DNA from: a virus
Taxonomy: Duplodnaviria > Heunggongvirae > Uroviricota > Caudoviricetes
Direction: 5' to 3' (one strand)
Length of the DNA stretch: 42,569 nucleotides
IMG/VR virus record: IMGVR_UViG_2870469529_000003
Coordinates: 1 to 42,569 of that record
Positions within the stretch are counted from its first letter, which is position 1, and each line of letters opens with the position of its first letter. A program made the position numbers and the translations under genes. The notes beneath the pieces are model-generated. The model was not told where the DNA came from. It saw only the letters and a list, made by a program, of their open reading frames with translations, and ran no database searches. Shown here one piece after another: positions 4,454 to 24,904 of the stretch.

Positions 4454-6382
4454 TTAACTTGTAAAAACATTAACTAGCGTTATCTTTCCGCCTGGACGTT
4501 TATATATATAGCTATATCTATCATTATCCGGGGAAATTATTGTCTGACTGCTGTATTCTATGGCTAACATCGGTGTATTAATAGTGTACTCATTGTCTGC
4601 ATAAATGGCATATGAATCACTTTGTTCTGCCTTAAATACACAAGCAGCACCGATAGTACATCTGGTACTTGGTGATAATGTTCTGATAGCTGCTTTGTTT
4701 TCAGTGCCAGAATCAGAGTTTGTACCCCAGTTATTAAACTCAACTGCATCTATGGTCAATGAGCATTCATCACCCAATACTATTGGATTATTATTTACGC
4801 CTCTAATACTGCCAGCAGAAAATGACATAGATGTAGAATTAGTTGCATTAAGGAAGTTATAGGTACGTCGACTGGGTGTGCTGTATTCTCCCATGCCAAG
4901 TGCATCAAAAGAAGACATAACAAAACCATTAACTTTATCAGCCCTTATAGCTGTCATGTTAGTATTCAATGCGGTTGATGCGTGAACAAAATGAGCGTTA
5001 GATATTTGCACAGATTCTACTTTACGTACTGAGTTTCCGTACAGTGCTAAAATCGGGATAGATACTCCTGAAGTATTAGTTGTCTCACCAATATAAATAT
5101 TACTAAGCGCGGTATTTATATGATTTGTTGAAGTATCTTGTGGCTCTAAAGCTATAGCTCCAATATCATATCCTCCATTGCAAAATATATTGCTAGCTCG
5201 ATTGCCACCGGCTGATAACCTTAATGGGCAGCTTCCTCCGTACACTTCCACAGTGTCTAGAACAGAGTCGCTGTACACACGTATGCCACCTCCCGTTGCA
5301 CGGATTGAGATATCTGATGCATCGGTAGCTTCGCAATAAATATCTCGAAATCTTGCAAGTCCTTGACCGTCATAGATAAACCATGTATTGAATCTCTTGC
5401 CAGTTAACTTCTCGTAATACCACCCAGCACCGCGAGTATGCAGTATGGCGTGATTGCACCTCCACTCCCCGTCGAACTGGATGTTTTTGAACTTAATGCT
5501 GTCCTGGCCATCATTAGACTCACCGGAACTAAAGATAAAGTTCTGATTATCATTTAGTGGTTTTATTACGGTAGTGCCAGTATATGCCTGATTAGCGCCC
5601 TGACCTAAAAATGTCAGGCCTTGGGTATGTCCGGGTATAGTGCAGGGTGACATTCTAAGCTCTCCTTTTGGGAGAATAATGTGTCGCACGCCAGCATCTA
5701 TAGCTCTCAGTATTGCTGGGGTTTGGTCAGCAATATGAACTCCACCACCATAGTTTTCAATGTGATCTGAAACAGGTTCTTTTTTCCAGTTGGTATCTAC
5801 TGTCGGTGTAGTGGGAACCATTGAACCTGGTGTGATTTCCCCCTTGTATGAGTAGTATTCATTATTAAATTTGAATGCCTGTAGCGCAGAGTGCAATGGT
5901 GAATTGCTACCAAAATATCCAGATGGAATAAATGGATGCAAATCATATTGCTGTAATTCAAATAGTTTTATTGCATTATCAAGCGTAGAATCTTCATATC
6001 CAACAAGTGAGGCCCCTTCAGGACCAGATAACTCTTTCCTTAGCTGATCAGGATCATACTTCAGCACATTAGGAAAATAGAACTGCTGTGCACCATACGC
6101 ATCATAAACAGCCATAGAATGGCCTTGCACGGTAACGAATTTGGCAATCTGTCCGTTATATACCGGATAACCAGCAGCGTTAATGATGATTGGTTGAGAA
6201 ACAGGAACGTGAGAGCCGTCTTCGTTCTCCACATAAACCTGAATCTGGTTTTCTGGATTTACCGGATCAGTGTCAATTTTACCGATATAAATTTTACCAT
6301 TGGCTACGGCTTTAAAAGAACGCGCCATAGTGAAGAGTTGCGATGGCATTGATACGATCACATTGGCTGTAATGTCTGTCAT
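4454..6382 (-). CDS. Tailspike protein (P22 gp9-like N-terminal head-binding domain, divergent receptor-binding domain)
   Basis: N-terminus [11 protein letters not shown]...[14 protein letters not shown]...LKYDPDQ matches the P22 tailspike head-binding domain; the remainder is a different beta-helix-type domain. Confidence 0.85.
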
Positions 6383-6439
6383 TTAATTTGCTCCAGATAC
6401 AAGGAATCACCGCAGCATGGCTACGGCAATGCGTCATTG

Positions 6440-6454
6440 AGACCACAGTGGTCT
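6440..6454. promoter_or_regulatory. Candidate Mnt operator, perfect 7-1-7 palindrome AGACCACAGTGGTCT
   Basis: Perfect dyad in the 135-bp gap between tailspike start and mnt start; same architecture as the symmetric P22 Mnt operator. Confidence 0.5.
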
Positions 6455-6517
6455 TATTGTGGATATAACCAGTAGATCATATGATGCCGATCCACTTACA
6501 AAAGTGAGGCATCAAGA

Positions 6518-6769
6518 ATGGGAAGAGATGACCCGCAATTTAATCTGCGGCTACCTTACGAATTAAAGGAAAAACTAAAACAGCGAGCCAAATCCAATGG
6601 CCGCTCTCTTAATTCAGAATTAGTTCAGATAGTGACTGATGCTGTATCAAAGCCATCCAAAATTTCAGGCTATCGAGACGATGCGGAACGCATCGCTGAT
6701 GAGCAGTCTGAACTTGTTAAGAAGATGGTGTTTGATACGCTGAAGGATTTGTACAAAAAACCCACCTGA
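6518..6769 (+). CDS. mnt: Mnt-like ribbon-helix-helix repressor (83 aa)
   Basis: MGRDDPQFNLRLPYELKEKLKQRAKSNGRSLNSELVQIV... is an Arc/Mnt-type RHH; same length and C-terminal tail (DAERIADEQSELVKKMVFDTLKDLYKK) as I recall for P22 Mnt. Confidence 0.8.
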   Translation: MGRDDPQFNLRLPYELKEKLKQRAKSNGRSLNSELVQIVTDAVSKPSKISGYRDDAERIADEQSELVKKMVFDTLKDLYKKPT

Positions 6770-6780
6770 CGGTGGGTTTC
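6750..6780. terminator. Bidirectional terminator hairpin between convergent mnt and the 322-aa gene
   Basis: AAAAAACCCACC-TGAC-GGTGGGTTTCAT: stem flanked by an A-run on one side and T-run on the other. Confidence 0.55.
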
Positions 6781-6784
6781 ATAA

Positions 6785-7753
6785 TTAGATTTCTGGTTTC
6801 ATTCTTCCGAAAACCTTTTCTATTCCTTTTTCGTATTCTTCTCTTGTCTCACTCATCGCTGCGACACCAAGAAGCTTACCGATATGCTGACGCAAAGCCT
6901 TGACACCAATTTCAGAAAGGAACAGATGCAACTTATCAGATTGTTTTCCGTTCTCGTCTCGGCTGGCTCTAATTTGTTCAAGGATTTTACCTTTACTCTT
7001 TGCTAGCGGGGTGTATATCTGCATGTTGGTTAGCTGCCCAAAACGAATAGGCCGTCCTTTCTCTGGCCTATTCAGGCCGTACAGTCGATACCACTCCTCG
7101 TATAGCTCATCTGGAAATTCCTTTTCATATTGACGAGCCTCTTCACGAACAAACGCTTTGAACTCGTCAATGACAGCCTGAACTTCTGGACGATAACCAG
7201 CAAGCGCATACGCAACCCCCTTAATTCCCGCCTTAGCGGAGGCATTAATAAGTCTCTGTGCTGCGGCGGCTGCCTTTAACCGTGATTGTGGTAGATCGTC
7301 ATTATCTTTGGCTTCTATTAGTGCCCTACCAATATCAACAATTGCTGTAATGTCATAACCTAACGCTTGATGAACGGTTTTAGACTTCGAAGTAAGTTGA
7401 AATTTATAGGGATTTTCCATTTTTCGCTGCAATTCTAGATCTCGGTATTTGCTCATATACTGAGCGCCAAGCAGTTGATCTAAATCCCTGGCATGTTCAC
7501 CAATCCCTAGCAACTGAGATAATCCAGTTTTCGTAACAACGACAGTTTTCGACTCGTCATCCAGTACATAACATTCAGCGTCAATGCCAAAATCATCTAA
7601 AAAGTTACCACGATGAGTTGCCCTGAGAATCTTACTTTTCCATCTTGCAGCAGCTGCTTTCTTTGCTATTTCAGAACGCTGCTCTTTAGTCAGCGACTTT
7701 GCGCGAGCGATCCCGCCCTTAGCTTTCCCTTCGCCACTTTTCTTTTCAGTCAT
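6785..7753 (-). CDS. Hypothetical protein (322 aa from MTEKKSG...), basic N-terminal segment, function unknown; occupies the immI/sieA cargo slot
   Basis: Long ORF; plausible start at 7753 preceded by AAAGG; N-terminus GGIARAKSLTKEQRSEIAKKAAAARW looks like a DNA-binding motif; own promoter upstream. Confidence 0.7.
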   Translation of the reverse strand: MTEKKSGEGKAKGGIARAKSLTKEQRSEIAKKAAAARWKSKILRATHRGNFLDDFGIDAECYVLDDESKTVVVTKTGLSQLLGIGEHARDLDQLLGAQYMSKYRDLELQRKMENPYKFQLTSKSKTVHQALGYDITAIVDIGRALIEAKDNDDLPQSRLKAAAAAQRLINASAKAGIKGVAYALAGYRPEVQAVIDEFKAFVREEARQYEKEFPDELYEEWYRLYGLNRPEKGRPIRFGQLTNMQIYTPLAKSKGKILEQIRASRDENGKQSDKLHLFLSEIGVKALRQHIGKLLGVAAMSETREEYEKGIEKVFGRMKPEI

Positions 7754-7754
7754 A

Positions 7755-7844
7755 ATGCAAGCACCTTTGTTGTGATGTATGCTTGCATTATATGCACTGT
7801 ACACACATACAAGCAAGCATAAAACTAAAACAAAATGCTTGCAT
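7755..7844 (-). promoter_or_regulatory. Promoter (-35 TTGCTT, 18-nt spacer, -10 TATAAT) bracketed by two inverted-repeat pairs of the 9-10-bp motif ATGCAAGCA / ATGCTTGCAT
   Basis: Motif copies at ~7755-7763, 7779-7788, 7812-7820 and 7835-7844 in alternating orientation; perfect TATAAT on the minus strand at ~7787-7792. Confidence 0.5.
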
Positions 7845-7909
7845 TACAACCGCGCTACTCCAACTACACATTATCATCTGGTATCCTGCTCAAAACTAAG
7901 GAGGTTGGT

Positions 7910-8098
7910 GTGAAGAAAAAATTTGTAAACGTTGCAAAGTGCGCAATTTTTATATTTTTTATGACCTTTTACGGATTTAGTGCCGGAGAAGGTTTCGATC
8001 GTGATGCCAATGCATTCAGTTTCTTTTGTCTGTCTATAGTGGTCATAATTGTATGGGTGGAGTTAAAGCAAACATTGTTTCATGTGCTAGGGAAATAA
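7910..8098 (+). CDS. Small hydrophobic (probably membrane) protein, 62 aa from a GTG start
   Basis: AGGAGG 5 nt upstream of GTG at 7910; sequence VKKKFVNVAKCAIFIFFMTFYGF...SFFCLSIVVIIVWVEL has two hydrophobic segments; transcribed divergently from the late operon. Confidence 0.4.
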   Translation: MKKKFVNVAKCAIFIFFMTFYGFSAGEGFDRDANAFSFFCLSIVVIIVWVELKQTLFHVLGK

Positions 8099-8115
8099 CC
8101 ATCCATGGCTTTCCG

Positions 8116-10347
8116 TTACTTCTGGTTATCATCACTGTTCATCCAGTACATGATGCCTAGCCTTGATATGGTTTTCTTATCTGATTCTGGAAGTGAGTTG
8201 TAAAACGAGCGCCAAGCAGAAGAGCGTCTTACAGTTGTATCAACGATGCTTTCTGGTGCTTGTTTTACTGCCAGCCTTGCTGCTTTCTGGAATTCTGGTG
8301 AGCTAATTAGCTTTTCTGCAGATTCAATTGATTCAGCGCCGCCCATCGCCCTGATTTTGCTGGCGACTTTTGCCCCAATTTCTGACCCAGCAACAGCACC
8401 TACTGCACTGAACGGTCCTGACACAGTTGAACCAACCGCAGTGCCAATGCGTTGGGCATGGTTAGCAACAAATTCATTTGCCGCAGTGACGCGATTAAAC
8501 CGTTTGACGAACTCGTTTAGTCTTCCTGTAGTTATCTCGTAAGATTTTGCGTCTTTGATAGCCTTTGCGACCTTATATACATCGTTCAGACCTGACATAG
8601 TCTCTTTTGGTAAATGTCGGGCAAGATTGCGCATCTGCCCGTTTGCTAACATGTTTTGATACCAGTCAGCAAACCCTGCAGGATTAAAATCAGCGCCACG
8701 TTTTCCGTTCGAAAGCATATCCCGAAGACCTGTTCCCAGTAGCTCGGTTCTTAGCTTCCTGGACGGCGTGTTTTGCATCAATTCACGAAATCCTTTGGCA
8801 TCGCCTTTCGACATTGCCTGTAGTGCTGTAGTTGCTTTGCGAGAAACATCACCGTTCAGCGTTCTGCCAGTTAGATTAATCATTTGCTCTTCCATGCTTT
8901 TTCGCATCTGAACAAGCCTCTGAGCAACTTCAAAATCACGTAATGCATTTGTCTCTGACAGCGCCGCCTTTTGATCATCGGCGAGCGAACCGTAAAGCCT
9001 CGATAAAGCAGCGCGATCAGCATCTTTATATGGTCCAGAATTCTTATGAAGTGCATCACCAACAAGTCGTCGTTGCTTATTGAGATTTGCATAAGTTAAT
9101 GCGCCGTTCTTGCCTGGATTAACTGCCCGAAAGACTCTCTTTTCAATAGGGTCAAGGTTTTTCATCCCGCCAAGATCTTCTGCCACCTGTTTGAGCATTG
9201 ACCTTGTTGATGGCGCATCAATTTTTGCACCTGCAGGCATCGCCTTTTCAACATTGCGATAAAGCTGGTCGCTTCGTTTCATCAGCGCAGACATTCTTCC
9301 ATTGACCGTATCAATAAACTTGTCGCTCATACCAAGAGCATCTTTTGCACCGGAAACGCGATCAATTATCTCCCCCGCACCCTGTGCTAGCTGCCTGATT
9401 GCTTCATTTTCCTGCACCTGTAGAGCAGAACCCGCACGGGACTTGATTGCTTGCTCAACTGCCTTGTATTGCTCGTTCCCGGAAAAGTGTGAAGGGAGTA
9501 ATGAATCAACATTAAGCCTTTCAGCAGACTCCAGAACTTCAGCCTGAGGATTGATATCTAGTTCATCAAGCGATGAAGCGAGATTTGGCCTTTTTTGTGC
9601 TGCTACTGTGCGAACGACTTCCTCTGGGTTCCTCGTCGCAGGAGTCATTGGTACACCTTGTGCTGCTCTTGCCTCTGCGGCATGAACCGCAGGATTTGTT
9701 GCCTCTGCGGCATCACCGGAGAATGGTGATGTTTCTGTTGGCGCAGTGGTCGCTCTCTGTGCAGATGTTTTATTGCCACTAATTATATTTGATGCACCAC
9801 GAACACCACGGGTAACGCCATTTATCAGGCCATGCGTAGCAATGTTAAGTCCGGCATTAATAGCGGCATTTTCGGCAAAATCACCCCGTTGATTCGCCGC
9901 GTCAGCGAGAGAACCAATGACCATGTTTCCAGCTACACCTGCTCCAGGAACAAGATAACCGCCTATTGACTCTCCAGCTTGCGCATAAGGGTCTGTCGGT
10001 CGATAGACAGGGCGATAAACATCATCCAAAACCTTGGGGCCACCAAGCCCCTGGCTGATTGCATTAATCAGACTTGCGCCACCCTGTAATACGTCAAATG
10101 GTATGTTTACCAGACCACGACCAGCCTGTTCTGCAATTTGCCCTGCACTTTGACCACCAGTGAGCCAATCGCCAGCTTGTTGCATCAATGATGGTTCTTC
10201 CCGTGTTGGTGCATTATTGGCCTGATTAACTGTTTGTTGCTGAACAGCCTGACCAGCAAAATACTCATCAATGGCGGTGCCAATATCTTCCGTGCTCGTA
10301 CCATCAGGGAAGGTAAATGTCTTACCGTTTGCAGTTACTTTCATCAT
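8116..10347 (-). CDS. Ejection (internal virion) protein, P22 gp16-like, 743 aa
   Basis: Position in the P22 gene order (20, 16, cargo, 9) and Ala/Gly/Gln-rich composition typical of E-proteins. Confidence 0.65.
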
Positions 10348-11747
10348 TCCACCGTAAATTGAATGCCTGATTTTGACGTGTAGCTACCTCCTGCTGATTG
10401 CTGAGTAGCTGGCTGTTGCCTTGATGATTTCTTCCCGCCATTACCGACATTAACGTTATATTGCTGGTTGTAATTGTCGGTATATTGCTGAATGTCGCGC
10501 ATTGATTGTTGCAGTGCTTCAGGGCTTGAGAAATCAACCTGTGGCATACCTTGAAAATACATCTTTGCTTCTGCAACGGTGTTGATACCGGATGCCCCCA
10601 TGTCTCTGGCTGCTGCAATGCCCTGATTCTGCATCTTTCCTTGGATTCGCTGTGCAGCGTTGTATAGTTTCCTCTGATCACCACCAGATGCACGGCTACG
10701 AATATCTGCACCAAGAGCAGGAGAACCTGAAGAGCCTGTAATGCCAGTCATGAAGCCAAGATCGTCAATTGATGCACCAGAAATTGCATCAAGATCTTTC
10801 TTCATTGCGTAATTCTGCGCGCTTGCTGCCGATGTAGCCGGAGCGGCAATAGAGCCAGCAGGAACGCGAACCATATTCCCCTCGTTGTCGATACCTTCGT
10901 AGAACGCATTAGCCCCAGCGCCGTGAAGCTTCCCGCCTACCGTTACAGTTCTGCCATCTGATAACTGAACTGTACGCTCATCATTCCCAGCGATTCCTCT
11001 TGTTGACGCTCGCTGCATTGCCAAATCCTGACCTCGTCGCGCAGTAGAAGCAGATAAGTCCTGACCGCGCATCGTGATGTTCTGACCTCGTGCTGTTAGT
11101 GCCTCTCCTGCCTGATTGCTGCGGATTGTCTCTGCCAGTCTGCCTCGGTCAATCTCACGACCAGCCATCTTGTCCTGAACATTGAAGTAGTCAATCGGAC
11201 CGAGAGCAGCCATCCCAAGGTGATCAACAAACTCACCAAATCCTGAAGGATTCTGCTGATACATCTGAGCAACGCTGTTAGGGTCAACACCGACGCGAGT
11301 CAGTTCCTTGGCGTTGTTTTGCAGCCATGATTGCATTGCTTCTGGAGACGATGACGCAAGGCGTGCGCCAGCCGCTAAGGTGCCGATAGAATTACGCTGG
11401 TCTTCATCAATGAATCCCATGCCTTTACGAACGGATTCAATCTGGTCTGGATATTGAGTAGCCAACTGACGCAAAGCACCGCGATCACCAGACGCATAAG
11501 CATTAGCGTACGCCTGCTGAAATTCTTTCTGCCGCTGAGCCTGCTTTTCCTGCTGAAACACCCCTGCAATACCTGAAAGGCCTTGCAAAGCAGTCAGTCC
11601 AACATTGTTAGCGCCTGAACGCTCAATATCATTGTTCTGCCTGATAAGCTGAAGCGTATTGCCGATGTCATTTACGCTCGGAGCGTTTGAGTTGACGCCG
11701 CCTATACCAGCCAACAATCCGCCGTTTGTTCCTTGCCAAGTAGCCAT
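10344..11747 (-). CDS. Ejection protein, P22 gp20-like, 467 aa
   Basis: Position and size match P22 gp20 (about 471 aa). Confidence 0.65.
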
Positions 11748-11756
11748 GATTACCCC

Positions 11757-12449
11757 TTAAAACAACGAGCCAAGCAATCCGATACCAGCACCAATGCCAG
11801 CGCCCCAAGGTGTTGATGTTCCCAAAAGGCTGGCAAGACCTGCACCGGCAATCGCACCAGACGTGCCACCGCTAATTGCAGTCTGAAGACTTGATGGTTT
11901 ATTGGCATTAGCAGCGGCAAGTGCTGCGCTTTGCTGTGCAATGCTGCTCATGTTGTTGGCGTATGTCTGCCCGGCGTTCGCCTGACCTTGCAGCGCACCA
12001 AGGCCAATGTTTGCCAGATTGTTGTAGTTGCTCATCTGGTTTGATAACCACGACTGACCGAGAGTCGGAGCAATCGTAGCCAGTTGATTGCTTGTGGCTG
12101 TCGAACCAAGTCCCCCCGTCGCCTCCGCAGCAGCAAGATTCTGGTAGCGAGCCTGACCTGCCAAGTCTTTATACTGCTGAGAGTTGTAATACTGATTAAG
12201 TGCCTGCCCCTGTCCTTCTAAACTGGAAAGGTTCTGAAGCTGGTTAACATACTGCTCCGCAAGCGGCGTGAACGGAGCAAGGTTTTTCATGATCGTCTGC
12301 CACTGTTGATTTTGCAGGTCTGCGGCATACTTCTGAGCTTCTGCGGCATACTTTGCACTTTTATCAGAACTGCCACCTTTTCCGCCTTTTTCAGGGCAAT
12401 AAGGTTCCTCGCCGCGCAGTTTTCTGCCCAGCTTAAATGCATATAACAT
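11757..12449 (-). CDS. Ejection protein, P22 gp7-like, 230 aa
   Basis: Position and size match P22 gp7 (229 aa). Confidence 0.6.
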   Translation of the reverse strand: MLYAFKLGRKLRGEEPYCPEKGGKGGSSDKSAKYAAEAQKYAADLQNQQWQTIMKNLAPFTPLAEQYVNQLQNLSSLEGQGQALNQYYNSQQYKDLAGQARYQNLAAAEATGGLGSTATSNQLATIAPTLGQSWLSNQMSNYNNLANIGLGALQGQANAGQTYANNMSSIAQQSAALAAANANKPSSLQTAISGGTSGAIAGAGLASLLGTSTPWGAGIGAGIGLLGSLF

Positions 12450-12907: not shown

Positions 12908-13608
12908 CAGTCAATCAGCCCATGTAATCTAAGTGCCGTTTCAAGCGCCAGAATACGCTGCCGCGCCTGCTGCAAACCTGTAGCGAGAGCTGCGACTTCG
13001 GATTGTGTGTACGTAGTGCCGACAGTGTATGACTGGTTAGCGTTGAATGAGCCAAGAAGTGGCGTACCTGTGGCTGCAGTCCATCCGGTATTTCTTGCTC
13101 CAACAACCTGAATTCCATCAACTGAATATGATGTTTTTACATCCAGCGGTGACTCAAGAGACTGCAATTCGGTTACGGTTTTCGATACGTAATCACTCTT
13201 AATGCCAGAGACATCGTTTTCTACGTCATCCAGTCTTTGGTCAACAGTGACCAGATGCGCCTGAATATCGATAACCTCATCCAGCAAGTAATCAACATCG
13301 CTACGCAGTACGACTATCTTCCCTTCGGCAGTTGTTAACCTGACCTCAAGGAGATTTATCGCTTTTGTGTTTGCGGAGATTCTTGCATCGTGGTCAGCCA
13401 GTTCGACATCCTGTTCATCGTTTTTCACCTGAGCATCGTAAGCGCCCTGACCAGCCTGATTTGCCTTCCCGGCAATTGCGCCGACATCAGCCCCCTGATT
13501 AATGACATACAGCAGGTAAGACTGGCTGAATATATTGCGTGGAAGGATTGATGTATCGAGTCGTGTAGCCTGAATTGTTACCGGCTCATTGAGATTCGAA
13601 TCAGCCAT
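12907..13608 (-). CDS. Tail needle protein, P22 gp26-like, 233 aa
   Basis: N-terminus [77 protein letters not shown] and C-terminal ...LRLHGLID closely match my recollection of P22 gp26. Confidence 0.85.
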
Positions 13609-15026
13609 TACTCAATCCTTATCTGGCAACCAGACAGAGTGACAGGTGACTTCGTGATAACGCGCAATTTGAAGCCGACATTTTTCCTGATGCGCCCTAC
13701 TCGCTTCCACAAAACGCGTTTGTCGTAAACGAACGGTTCATTCTGCTCAATCATCTGCTCACGTCCGTAATTGATGCCGTCAGTGGTTGCAGAGAGAAAA
13801 AGGCGGTCAGCATACTGCGCAACTCCAGTTGAAGATTCAACTTCAAGGTCGAAAACTCTGGCGTTATCTGCTTTGAACAACGGAGTAAACAGCAGGTGTT
13901 CCTGTTGCTTGTCGTACTGGCTGCTGATATCGAACTGCAATTTCCCGGTCACCGATTCCAGCTTATCGCCGCACGTTATCTGATTGCCTTCGTAAATGAA
14001 GTCGATAGCGCGGTACACATCGTCATACAGGCCTGTTTTCAGCACACACCATTGCGGACCATTGGCGCTTGAAGATGCGTCGTACACGAGGACGTGACGC
14101 GGCAGGTGAATAATCAGCAACTCATGAGCATCAAATCGCAACGATTCCATCAAGCCATCAGCCAGTTCATCAGCAGTGTAGGAGCGGAGGATTTTCTCAA
14201 TGCTCGCGCTGGCGATTGGTGACACCTGACCGGAGCCGATGATGTATACAGACGGCGCACCTGTTGCCGGATTGCTGATGAACGCATAGGAATCAGCAAA
14301 CGGCGTTTTGCAGTAAGTTCCGGCGATGCCTTTTTGCACCATCAGCGATGGCTGTGCGACATACAAAGCGGCACCAACGGTGGTTGCACCAGTCAGGGAG
14401 AAATATTCAATAGTCGATGAACCAAAGCAGACGATGAAGTCTCGCCATGTCCCGATACCGATGATGCCGTCCGGCTGAGACTCGGCACGATATTGTGCGC
14501 TGTAACGGTCAGGATGCGATTCGTCTTCAAGGTCAGTGATAAACCATGAATCAGTGCCGTCTTTTGACCACGCATAACGCCCACGTAAACGCGTAATGTC
14601 GCGAACCGAACCTAACTCATACTGAGTGAATCCGCTGTCTGTAGGCCAGTTTGAGACTGTTTTAACCGTGCCATCATAGCGATACTCGACCAGTTGACCA
14701 TTAACGCCTACCGCCTGAGATGTTCGACCATGCGCCATTGATACGCGACCACTTCCGGCAACATCACCGACCTCGCTTTCGCCCTTATACAACTTGCCAC
14801 CGCAAACGCGATAAACAGCATTCTGCGCCATGTTGTACTCGACACCGCGCGATACACCATTAACATCAGAACGTTTGGCAATGCCCGGGAATGAGCGAAG
14901 ATATCCGCTGCTGTTGAGTATTTCTTTGGGTGTAGCCAGCATATTCACTGGCAGATAGTCGATGTAGTCGGCGTTTCGGAAATCTTTGCCGACACCTTTC
15001 ATAAGCGGAAGTTGCTGAATCGGCAT
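13608..15026 (-). CDS. Tail accessory / portal-plug protein, P22 gp10-like, 472 aa
   Basis: Same length as P22 gp10 (472 aa) and syntenic position. Confidence 0.75.
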
Positions 15027-23691: not shown

Positions 23692-24164
23692 ACCTCAATC
23701 TCTCTGACCGTTCCGCCAGCTTCTTTGAATTTTGCAATCAGGCTATCAGCCTTATGCTCGAACTGACCATAACCAGCCCCCGGCAGTGAAGCCCAGATAT
23801 TGCTGCAACGGTCGATAGCCTGACGGATATCACCGCGATCAATCATCGGTAAAGCGCCACGCTCTTTAATCTGCTGCAATGCCACAGCGTCCTGGCTTTT
23901 GGGAGAGAAGTCTTTCAGGCCAAGCTGCTTACGATAGGCATCCCACCAACGGGAAAGAAGCTGGTAACGTCCGGCTGCTGTTGATTTGAGTTTGGGGTTT
24001 AGCGTGACAAGTTTGCGAGGGTGATCGGAGTAATCAGTAAATAGCTCTCCGCCAACAATGACGTCATAACCATGATTTCTGGTTTTCTGACGTCCGTTAT
24101 CTGTCCCCTCTGACCACGCCAGCATATCGAGGAACGCCTTACGTTGATTATTGATTTCCACCAT
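23688..24164 (-). CDS. Endolysin, lambda R-type lytic transglycosylase, 158 aa
   Basis: [51 protein letters not shown]... appears near-identical to lambda R. Confidence 0.9.
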
Positions 24165-24471
24165 CTTCTACTCCGGCTTTTTTAGCAGCGAAGCGTTTGA
24201 TAAGCGAACCAATCGAGTCAGTACCGATGTAGCCGATAAACACGCTCGTTATATAAGCGAGATTGCTACTTAGTCCGGCGAAGTCGAGAAGGTCACGAAT
24301 GAACCAGGCGATAATGGCGCACATCGTTGCGTCGATTACTGTTTTTGTAAACGCACCGCCATTATATCTGCCGCGAAGGTACGCCATTGCAAACGCAAGG
24401 ATTGCCCCGATGCCTTGTTCCTTTGCCGCGAGAATGGCGGCTAACAGGTCATGTTTTTCTGGCATCTTCAT
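24148..24471 (-). CDS. Holin, lambda S-type class I, 107 aa, with dual-start MKMPEK motif
   Basis: [41 protein letters not shown]... appears near-identical to lambda S. Confidence 0.9.
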
Positions 24472-24862: not shown

Positions 24863-24904
24863 TATTATGCCGTTAATATGTTGCCATCCGTGGCAATCAT
24901 GCTG

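What the first reader, a model, noticed from the sequence alone, without database searches (positions are those of the whole stretch)
7910..8098. Divergently transcribed 62-aa hydrophobic protein next to the gp16-like gene: candidate superinfection-exclusion factor
Good RBS (AGGAGG, 5-nt spacing, GTG start) and two hydrophobic segments. It is the only plus-strand gene embedded in the minus-strand virion operon apart from mnt. Small prophage inner-membrane proteins in this slot (SieA/Cor/Imm-like) often block DNA entry by related phages.
Basis: inference. Interest (0 to 1): 0.5.

Follow-up and report, generated by a model that had tools for sequence, protein, structure and literature searches.

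The report
Small membrane protein in sieA slot
This is a real but mostly unannotated 62-residue inner-membrane protein gene in the slot where phage P22 keeps its superinfection-exclusion gene sieA, using the same start signals, so it is a good but untested candidate for a new kind of phage-entry blocker.

Summary
The ORF is there as described: 7910-8098, + strand, AAGGAGG, 5-nt spacer, GTG, 62 aa, two hydrophobic helices. One correction: it is convergent with gp16 and divergent from a P63C-domain gene.

It is a real gene.
- It matches PHROG 21338 (unknown function) over its full length.
- Homologues of 61-66 codons exist down to about 32% identity.
- dN/dS is 0.15-0.3, and only this frame stays open.

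Every context examined puts it convergent with, and nearly always directly abutting, the gp16 ejection-protein gene of a P22-like phage.

The 31 nt before the start codon, plus the GTG, match the P22 sieA initiation region at all but one position. In IMG/VR this leader precedes at least 11 unrelated ORF families, nearly all with a membrane segment or signal peptide. SieA is the only one with a known function. Many of these cargos end in a shared motif, CCATCCnTGGC.

The protein is not a SieA homologue (hhalign probability 0.1%). It matches nothing in Pfam, NCBIfam, PADLOC or the PDB.

Best reading: a prophage-expressed two-pass inner-membrane protein that excludes superinfecting P22-like phages at the DNA-entry step. 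That function rests on position and expression signals only (confidence about 0.45).

The parts
7879..7909 (+). Conserved 31-nt leader (TGGTATCCTGCTCAAAACTAAGGAGGTTGGT) shared with P22 sieA and with at least 11 unrelated cargo ORFs. It corresponds to the stretch between the annotated P22 PsieA promoter and the sieA start codon.
   Evidence: alignment with P22; the annotated PsieA ends where the shared leader begins. (at least 120 IMG/VR contigs carry the leader in front of different ORFs and behind different upstream sequences).
7872..7887 (+). Candidate promoter -10 elements: TATCAT (7872-7877, at the position of the P22 PsieA -10 TTTCAT) and the extended -10-like TGgTATCCT (7879-7887) inside the invariant leader. 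Inference only.
   Evidence: Read from the sequence. The consensus promoter scan did not call a site here. In P22, 85 bp upstream of sieA suffice for expression (Leavitt 2024, PMC10883804).
7898..7904 (+). Shine-Dalgarno AAGGAGG, 5 nt before the GTG.
   Evidence: Homologues in other upstream contexts each have their own SD at the same spacing.
7910..8098 (+). CDS for a 62-aa two-helix membrane protein (PHROG 21338 family). Predicted N-in/C-in: TM1 about residues 5-25, acidic loop 26-35, TM2 about 36-50, followed by a W49-x-E51-L-K53 motif.
8099..8109 (+). 3' boundary motif CCATCCATGGC directly after the stop codon, shared by many unrelated cargos of this slot. Role unknown.
   Evidence: 87 copies in 1.74 Mb of fetched loci against about 3 expected. 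Not a convincing terminator in the window.
8116..10347 (-). gp16-type ejection (DNA transfer) protein gene, 743 aa, convergent with the small ORF. gp16 is one of the two proteins where SieA escape mutations map in P22.
   Evidence: Homologous N-terminus in L169 gp16. Pfam Phage_P22_gp16 on the equivalent neighbours of the homologues. Leavitt 2024.
6785..7753 (-). P63C-domain protein gene, divergent from the small ORF, in the place of P22 ant.
7752..7846 (.). Operator-like palindromes (ATAATGCAAGCA / TGCTTGCATTAT; ATGCTTGCATTA twice) flanking a leftward TTGCTT-18-TATAAT promoter for the P63C gene. Context only; this is not shown to control the small ORF.

Best explanation
The ORF is a genuine gene for a 62-residue helical-hairpin protein of the inner membrane. 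Predicted topology is N-terminus and C-terminus in the cytoplasm, with a short acidic periplasmic loop.

It is the cargo of the sieA expression cassette of a P22-like prophage. That cassette has a short conserved leader (5'UTR, SD and GTG, with a weak promoter at or just upstream of it) and points against the end of ejection-protein gene 16.

By analogy with SieA, the only characterised cargo of this cassette, it is most likely made at a low constitutive level in the lysogen. There it would act in the inner membrane to stop superinfecting P22-like phages from completing DNA delivery, probably by interfering with membrane insertion or function of the gp16/gp20 conduit. On this reading it is a functional analogue of SieA, not a homologue.

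Shown here: the gene is real, it is under purifying selection, it looks like a membrane protein, it shares the leader, and its linkage to gp16 is conserved. Inferred: expression from the prophage, inner-membrane location, and the exclusion function and its target.
For: **Gene reality**
- Full-length PHROG 21338 match, E = 4e-45.
- 62-aa homologues at 79-82% identity in Salmonella and Serratia, and distant ones at 32-53%.
- dN/dS 0.15-0.30, with only this frame open; Fisher p = 0.004.
- Each upstream context supplies its own SD.

**Slot and expression**
- P22 sieA has the same position and orientation, and its leader, SD and GTG differ at one position.
- 85 bp upstream suffice for sieA function in single copy (PMC10883804).
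- The window has no sieA elsewhere.
- Of at least 11 cargo families behind the same leader, nearly all carry TM segments or signal peptides.

**Linkage to the ejection apparatus**
- Every sub-family examined is convergent with a gp16 gene: the stops are 45 nt or less apart or overlap by 4 nt in L173, and one 95-aa ORF intervenes in L174/L175.
- In L169-L172 and L176 it is the only gene between gp16 and the tailspike gene.
- SieA escape mutations map to the C-terminal regions of gp16 and gp20.

**Protein anatomy**
- Two hydrophobic helices.
- N-terminus KKK..K, loop GEGFDRDANA, consistent with the positive-inside rule.
- An i, i+4 conserved stripe K10-F14-M18-G22 on TM1, and W49/E51/K53 at the end of TM2.
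Against: - No sequence or profile similarity to SieA or to any defence or exclusion family in PADLOC, Pfam or NCBIfam.
- Ten other unrelated cargo families of unknown function use the same leader, so the slot is not specific for exclusion proteins.
- In some prophages the gene follows another envelope gene, a lipoprotein or a Rap1a-like gene.
- No promoter was called by the consensus scan.
- No transcript, translation or phenotype data exist.
- The AlphaFold confidence is only moderate (pLDDT 71).
Confidence: 0.45

Rival explanations
1. It is a real prophage-expressed membrane moron, but its job is not to block DNA entry by P22-like phages. It could modulate a host inner-membrane protein (a transporter, or a receptor used by other phage types). 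It could protect against colicins or T6SS effectors. It could otherwise improve lysogen fitness.
For: The leader drives many unrelated envelope proteins of unknown function. In Serratia the gene sits next to a Rap1a-like T6SS immunity gene, and in Salmonella next to a lipoprotein gene, which suggests a general 'envelope armour' locus. The conserved one-face stripe on TM1 fits binding to any membrane partner.
Against: The linkage to gp16 persists down to about 32% identity and holds in phages that have no other moron gene. The only characterised occupant of the slot is an injection blocker. HMMER found the family only 12 times among 1.84 billion representative proteins, and every context examined was a P22-like phage. 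A general fitness factor would be expected to spread more widely.
Confidence: 0.3
2. It is a membrane-damaging peptide: a type I toxin, an abortive-infection effector, or a holin/antiholin-like lysis-timing factor.
For: It is small, very hydrophobic and has two TM segments with N-in/C-in topology, as class II holins do. In L013-15 a 22-aa hydrophobic ORF follows it.
Against: No holin, toxin or Abi family matches. No antisense sRNA family or antisense promoter was found. The window has its own lambda-family holin at 24151-24471. At 62 aa with two TMs it is larger than typical type I toxins. The shared leader with sieA, which does not affect growth when expressed, points to constitutive expression, which a toxin would not tolerate.
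Confidence: 0.1
3. The ORF is not functional as a protein. [quoted passage not shown]
For: PGAP and three phage records leave it unannotated. A conserved non-coding motif abuts it. The 'ant moron' is thought to modulate read-through into the tailspike gene (PMC2629481).
Against: dN/dS is well below 1 and third-position variation predominates. The reading frame, length and specific residues are kept at 32-44% identity, where the DNA is no longer alignable. An SD is maintained independently in different contexts. RNA folds of the 3' region in the window are no better than shuffles.
Confidence: 0.05

Closest known systems
P22 SieA (superinfection exclusion protein A, types A-C; Leavitt et al. 2024, PMC10883804)
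   Same: Same genomic slot and orientation, convergent with gene 16 in a P22-like prophage. The 31-nt leader, SD and GTG start differ at one position. Both are integral inner-membrane proteins encoded against the late operon.
   Different: No detectable homology (BLASTP E = 0.29; hhalign probability 0.1%). 62 aa with 2 TM helices against 164-200 aa with 3-4 TM. Lacks the FxRYPxEAxxFNK cytoplasmic motif. Function untested.
[quoted passage not shown]
   Same: Small size, predicted two-pass inner-membrane topology, and a phage-encoded function proposed to act at DNA entry.
   Different: No Pfam hit at E <= 10 for the window protein, and no consistent family across the 12 members at E <= 1. Imm belongs to a lytic myovirus and is expressed early in infection. 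This gene belongs to a temperate podovirus and sits in a prophage cassette.
HK97 gp15 / YebO-like moron exclusion protein (Cumby et al. 2012; from general knowledge)
   Same: A small moron-encoded inner-membrane protein of a temperate phage that blocks genome entry of its own phage type by acting on the DNA-delivery proteins.
   Different: No sequence relationship was detected by the library scans. gp15 has a single TM, belongs to a different phage type (siphovirus) and sits at a different locus.
HK620 HkcB / epsilon34 gp14 and the other cargo families of the same cassette (PHROGs 5962, 8100, 2651, 7294, 19844, 10450, 21022)
   Same: They are alternative occupants of exactly this slot, behind the same leader and often followed by the same 3' motif. 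Almost all are membrane-anchored or secreted, and all have unknown function.
   Different: Unrelated sequences and architectures, for example one TM plus a coiled coil, or signal-peptide proteins.

Membership tests
SieA (P22 superinfection exclusion protein A; Pfam PF26849 as precomputed for its homologues) | Sequence or profile homology to SieA | tested here: not met
   BLASTP against P22 SieA gave E = 0.29. hhalign of the 62-aa family (A2) against a 9-member type A SieA alignment (A3) gave probability 0.1% and E = 0.49. Types B and C were not tested directly. The local Pfam copy lacks PF26849, since P22 SieA itself returned no family.
SieA | About 160-200 aa with three or more TM segments and the cytoplasmic motif FxRYPxEAxxFNK | tested here: not met
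   62 aa and two TM helices. Only a chance-level resemblance, GE..GF(D/N), which hhalign did not recover. The motif definition comes from PMC10883804.
SieA | Location between genes 16 and 9 of a P22-like prophage, transcribed against the late operon, with its own promoter and leader | tested here: met
   The leader and GTG differ from those of P22 sieA at one position.
SieA | Blocks DNA injection by P22-like phages, with escape mutations in gp16 and gp20 | not testable with these tools
   Needs plating, K+ efflux and escape-mutant experiments.
PHROG 21338 (unknown function) | Full-length match to the family HMM | tested here: met
   E = 4.3e-45, residues 1-62 on profile positions 1-62 of 62.
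T4 Imm / HK97 gp15-YebO / other curated exclusion or defence families | Match to the curated family model | tested here: not met
   No family for the window protein in Pfam, NCBIfam or PADLOC at E <= 10. No consistent Pfam family across the 12 members at E <= 1. Whether each named family is present in these library releases was not checked individually.
Type I toxin-antitoxin (Hok, Ldr, TisB, Ibs/Sho-like) | Small toxin family match plus an antisense sRNA with its own promoter | tested here: not met
   No family hit. No Rfam sRNA near gathering score in 6300-8400. No antisense promoter-like site.
Class II holin | Holin family match and location in the lysis cassette | tested here: not met
   The only PHROG match has unknown function, and there is no Pfam holin match. 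The window's lambda-family holin lies at 24151-24471. The two-TM topology alone is shared.
Cor / Llp-type exclusion lipoproteins | Signal peptide with a lipobox cysteine | tested here: not met
   No lipobox in the sequence. The N-terminal hydrophobic segment is followed by a second TM helix, not by a mature domain.

The most novel reading that the evidence does not exclude
The gene-16-proximal slot of P22-like phages may be a true exchangeable cassette site. It would be bounded by a 31-nt expression leader and an 11-nt 3' motif (CCATCCnTGGC), and phages would shuffle a repertoire of at least 11 unrelated envelope proteins through it. Each of these could be a distinct anti-entry or envelope-defence device. 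On this reading the 62-aa hairpin is the minimal and most deeply conserved member. It is the only moron gene in several lineages, and it might directly obstruct the gp16 inner-membrane channel, making it the smallest known injection blocker for short-tailed phages.
Probability: 0.2. Interest if true: 0.7.

Novelty: new member of a known kind. Interest (0 to 1): 0.5.

Why it matters
[quoted passage not shown] A second, unrelated and much smaller protein in the same cassette would be an easy probe of that step: 62 residues, two helices and a handful of conserved positions.

The wider picture matters too. One conserved leader drives at least 11 unrelated envelope proteins, only one of them characterised. 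That turns the 'rapid flux' already noted for the P22 'ant moron' into a defined list of candidate exclusion or defence genes.

There is also an annotation gap. Most RefSeq E. coli genomes listed as carrying the full ORF show no annotated feature there (88 of 5,426 genomes carry at least 80% of the query).

Tried and rejected
- **Family libraries.** Pfam, NCBIfam and PADLOC gave no family for the window protein. Pfam on all 12 family members gave only scattered single weak hits.
- **PDB.** A sequence profile search found nothing at E <= 1.
- **Fold search.** Foldseek of the AlphaFold model against BFVD gave no match at E <= 0.001, only generic helical hairpins. No further fold searches were run because a 62-aa hairpin is uninformative.
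- **Homology to SieA.** Rejected. The weak overlap with the SieA FxRYPxEAxxFNK motif seen in BLASTP was not supported by the profile comparison.
- **Rfam on 6300-8400.** Only sub-threshold miRNA-like hits caused by the palindromes at 7745-7852.
- **Promoter.** The consensus promoter scan called nothing upstream of the ORF, so the promoter assignment stays an inference.
- **3' motif as terminator.** Not supported in the window or in Salmonella (z-scores about 0). It is terminator-like only in L176 and L169.
- **Leader scan of genome contigs.** Zero hits, probably because the species-representative genomes lack such prophages.
- **Hofer et al. 1995** (mapping of sieA expression signals) is not held in the library.
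- **Window coordinates from E. coli E189.** The two sequences are in register only over about 6-10 kb. E189 annotation was therefore not transferred to window coordinates elsewhere, and the holin and gtrA were located in the window by tblastn.

Full report
**1. The observation**

The window carries a P22-like (Lederbergvirus-type) prophage. Around the finding, the gene order is:
- tailspike, 4454-6382 (-)
- mnt-type Arc/Mnt repressor, 6518-6769 (+)
- a P63C-domain gene, 6785-7753 (-)
- the small ORF, 7910-8098 (+)
- the ejection-protein genes gp16 (8116-10347, -), gp20 (10344-11747, -) and gp7 (11757-12449, -)

One correction is needed. The ORF is convergent with gp16, with 17 nt between the two stop codons. 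It is divergent only from the P63C gene.

**2. It is a gene**

- The protein matches PHROG 21338 (62-position profile, unknown function) end to end at E = 4e-45. The longer ATG-initiated 87-aa reading matches only through its last 62 residues.
- The word-indexed search of 5.8 billion proteins returned 15 hits. They include 62-aa proteins at 79-82% identity, annotated as hypothetical in Salmonella and Serratia.
- A HMMER profile search of 1.84 billion representatives found only 12 proteins. Seven are newly found, more distant relatives of 61-98 aa at 32-53% identity.
- In nucleotide comparisons between the E. coli, Salmonella and Serratia alleles, dN/dS is 0.15-0.30 at dS up to 0.38. Only the annotated frame is open in all sequences. 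For window versus Serratia, Fisher p = 0.004.
- In 59 fetched loci the ORF is intact, as 13 distinct alleles that are all 189 nt long.
- Where the upstream DNA differs, each context supplies its own Shine-Dalgarno sequence at the right distance, and an ATG or GTG start.
- GC falls to 0.37 and GC skew flips to +0.35 across the ORF.
- The ORF is unannotated in phages phiv205-1, JEP4 and UPF_BP1. Of 5,426 complete E. coli genomes, 88 carry at least 80% of the query, and most of the full-length matches listed show no annotated feature there.

**3. It sits in the sieA cassette**

In P22, sieA (13336-13830, - strand) is convergent with gene 16 and 22 nt from its stop. Aligning the two upstream regions gives TGGTATCCTGCnCAAAACTAAGGAGGTTGGTGTG in both. 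That is 31 nt plus the GTG, differing only at the n position, and similarity drops sharply on both sides. The annotated P22 PsieA promoter (13861-13891) ends exactly where the shared stretch begins, so the shared stretch corresponds to the sieA 5'UTR.

Leavitt et al. 2024 showed that sieA with 85 bp of upstream DNA, in single copy, is sufficient for exclusion. [quoted passage not shown] The window has no sieA homologue anywhere.

**4. The leader is a shared expression module with exchangeable cargo**

An exact-pattern scan of IMG/VR found at least 120 contigs with the leader. The ORF that starts at its GTG belongs to at least 11 unrelated families:
- SieA type A (164 aa)
- three HkcB/epsilon34-gp14-like groups (107-109 aa; one TM plus a coiled coil)
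- a 129-aa signal-peptide protein
- a 75-aa multi-TM protein
- the 62-aa protein (13 loci)
- proteins of 149, 140, 116, 106, 99 and 68 aa

Nearly all have a TM segment or signal peptide (two N-terminal segments fall below the Kyte-Doolittle threshold and were judged by eye). Apart from SieA, the ten families scanned either match PHROGs of unknown function or match none.

Upstream sequence types and cargo types occur in many combinations. In the loci with enough flanking sequence, nearly all cargos end 0-63 nt from the stop of a long convergent gp16-type ORF. The exception is the 75-aa family, for which none was found. Many unrelated cargos are followed directly by CCATCCnTGGC. This motif also separates tandem cassettes in L173. 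It occurs 87 times in 1.74 Mb of fetched loci against about 3 expected.

The region as a whole was already described as the rapidly fluxing 'ant moron' (Villafane et al. 2008, PMC2629481). I did not find the leader-cargo-motif architecture described in the papers I could read.

**5. The 62-aa family is tied to gene 16**

Every context examined places the gene convergent with a P22 gp16-type gene, and nearly always directly abutting it. The stop codons are 45 nt or less apart. They overlap by 4 nt in L173, and one 95-aa ORF intervenes in L174/L175. The contexts are:
- the window
- three cultured phages
- Serratia and two Salmonella sub-types
- L168 and L169
- the distant homologues P0031-P0035

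This holds although the gp16 proteins range from about 600 to 786 aa with different C-terminal tails, and although the upstream neighbours vary. Those neighbours include the P63C gene, a C2-like repressor, a lipoprotein, a Rap1a-like gene and the tailspike gene. In L169-L172 and L176 it is the only gene between gp16 and the tailspike gene, making it the minimal moron of those phages.

**6. Protein anatomy**

Kyte-Doolittle windows and AlphaFold (pLDDT 71) both give two helices, at residues 3-24 and 29-61. The charge distribution predicts N-in/C-in by the positive-inside rule: the N-terminus is KKK..K, the loop is GEGFDRDANA, and the C-terminus is ELKQ...GK. This topology is an inference.

Across 12 diverse members, K10, F14, M18, G22 and W49 are invariant. 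S37, F38, I43, I46, I47, E51 and K53 are nearly so. K10 is Q in L168. The i, i+4 stripe on TM1 and the W-x-E-[IL]-K motif at the cytoplasmic end of TM2 suggest a specific helix-packing or partner-binding surface.

**7. What it is not**

- Not a SieA homologue: BLASTP E = 0.29 and hhalign probability 0.1%.
- No Pfam, NCBIfam or PADLOC family, no PDB relative, and no significant BFVD fold match.
- No sRNA family or antisense promoter that would indicate a type I toxin-antitoxin pair.
- Not the lysis-cassette holin, which lies at 24151-24471.

**8. Mechanism**

The best-supported reading is a prophage-expressed, two-pass inner-membrane protein that acts like SieA. It would interfere at the inner membrane with the gp16/gp20 DNA-delivery conduit of superinfecting P22-like phages.

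The gene, its constraint, its membrane character, the shared expression leader and the gp16 linkage are shown here. Expression in the lysogen, localisation and the exclusion activity are inferred. I put this at about 0.45.

The main rival (about 0.3) is a different envelope-level moron function. It is supported by the fact that ten other uncharacterised families share the cassette, and that the gene sometimes travels with a lipoprotein or a T6SS-immunity-like gene. A toxin or holin-like role (about 0.1) and a non-protein explanation (about 0.05) are much less likely, for the reasons given with each rival.

**9. Novelty and verdict**

The family already exists as an unnamed PHROG and as 'hypothetical protein' entries. 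Nothing is published on its function in the literature I could search.

It is best filed as a new, unrelated member of a known kind: small prophage inner-membrane proteins encoded in exclusion slots. Interest 0.5.

Noticed in passing
window 6785-7753 (-) and 7752-7846: A P63C-domain protein occupies the place of P22 ant. Its upstream region has perfect palindromes (ATAATGCAAGCA / TGCTTGCATTAT, and ATGCTTGCATTA twice) that bracket a leftward TTGCTT-18-TATAAT promoter with its -10 at 7792..7787. They look like operators for the adjacent Mnt-type repressor (6518-6769).
   Followed up: partly
window 8099-8109 and 24884-24894; many loci: The motif CCATCCnTGGC follows the stop codon of many unrelated cargo ORFs of the gene-16-proximal slot, and it separates tandem cassettes in L173. 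There are 87 copies in the fetched loci against about 3 expected. It is not a convincing terminator in the window, and its function is unknown. A second copy (TTGCCATCCGTGGCAA) lies at about 24882-24897.
   Followed up: partly
window 8116-10347 (-): gp16 is an intact 743-aa ORF in the window. PGAP annotates the in-register region of E. coli E189 as a partial 'lytic transglycosylase domain-containing' pseudogene, and no Pfam family matches the protein.
   Followed up: no
L010-L012 (Salmonella) 4483-4968: Here the sieA-type leader drives a 161-aa lipoprotein (MKKSLLIIPLLLAGC...). The 62-aa gene follows with its own SD, giving a two-gene envelope cassette. The lipoprotein could be a Cor/Llp-like exclusion factor.
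   Followed up: no
L007-L009, L138 (Serratia) about 4644-4991: A Rap1a-like gene (PF18602, a T6SS immunity protein family) with a signal peptide sits directly upstream of the 62-aa gene inside a P22-like prophage. It is a possible prophage-borne orphan T6SS immunity gene.
   Followed up: no
L013-L015, L166: about 27 nt after the 62-aa stop (L013 5216-5284): A 22-aa hydrophobic ORF (MVTVGWIIVALLVALWAKNRYY) with a GGGAGG SD follows the boundary motif and runs antisense into the 3' end of gp16. The same start region follows the 68-aa and 99-aa cargos.
   Followed up: no
L170 3920-3941 and L172 3947-3968 (- strand): A strong intrinsic terminator (7-9 bp GC-rich stem plus a T-run) lies on the late-operon strand between the small ORF and the tailspike gene. 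It sits where read-through into the tailspike gene would have to be antiterminated.
   Followed up: no
JEP4 (L002 3415-3984), L010, L013, L015: Several P22-like prophages carry a second C2/LexA-like (HTH plus peptidase S24) repressor gene just upstream of the cassette, in the immI region.
   Followed up: no
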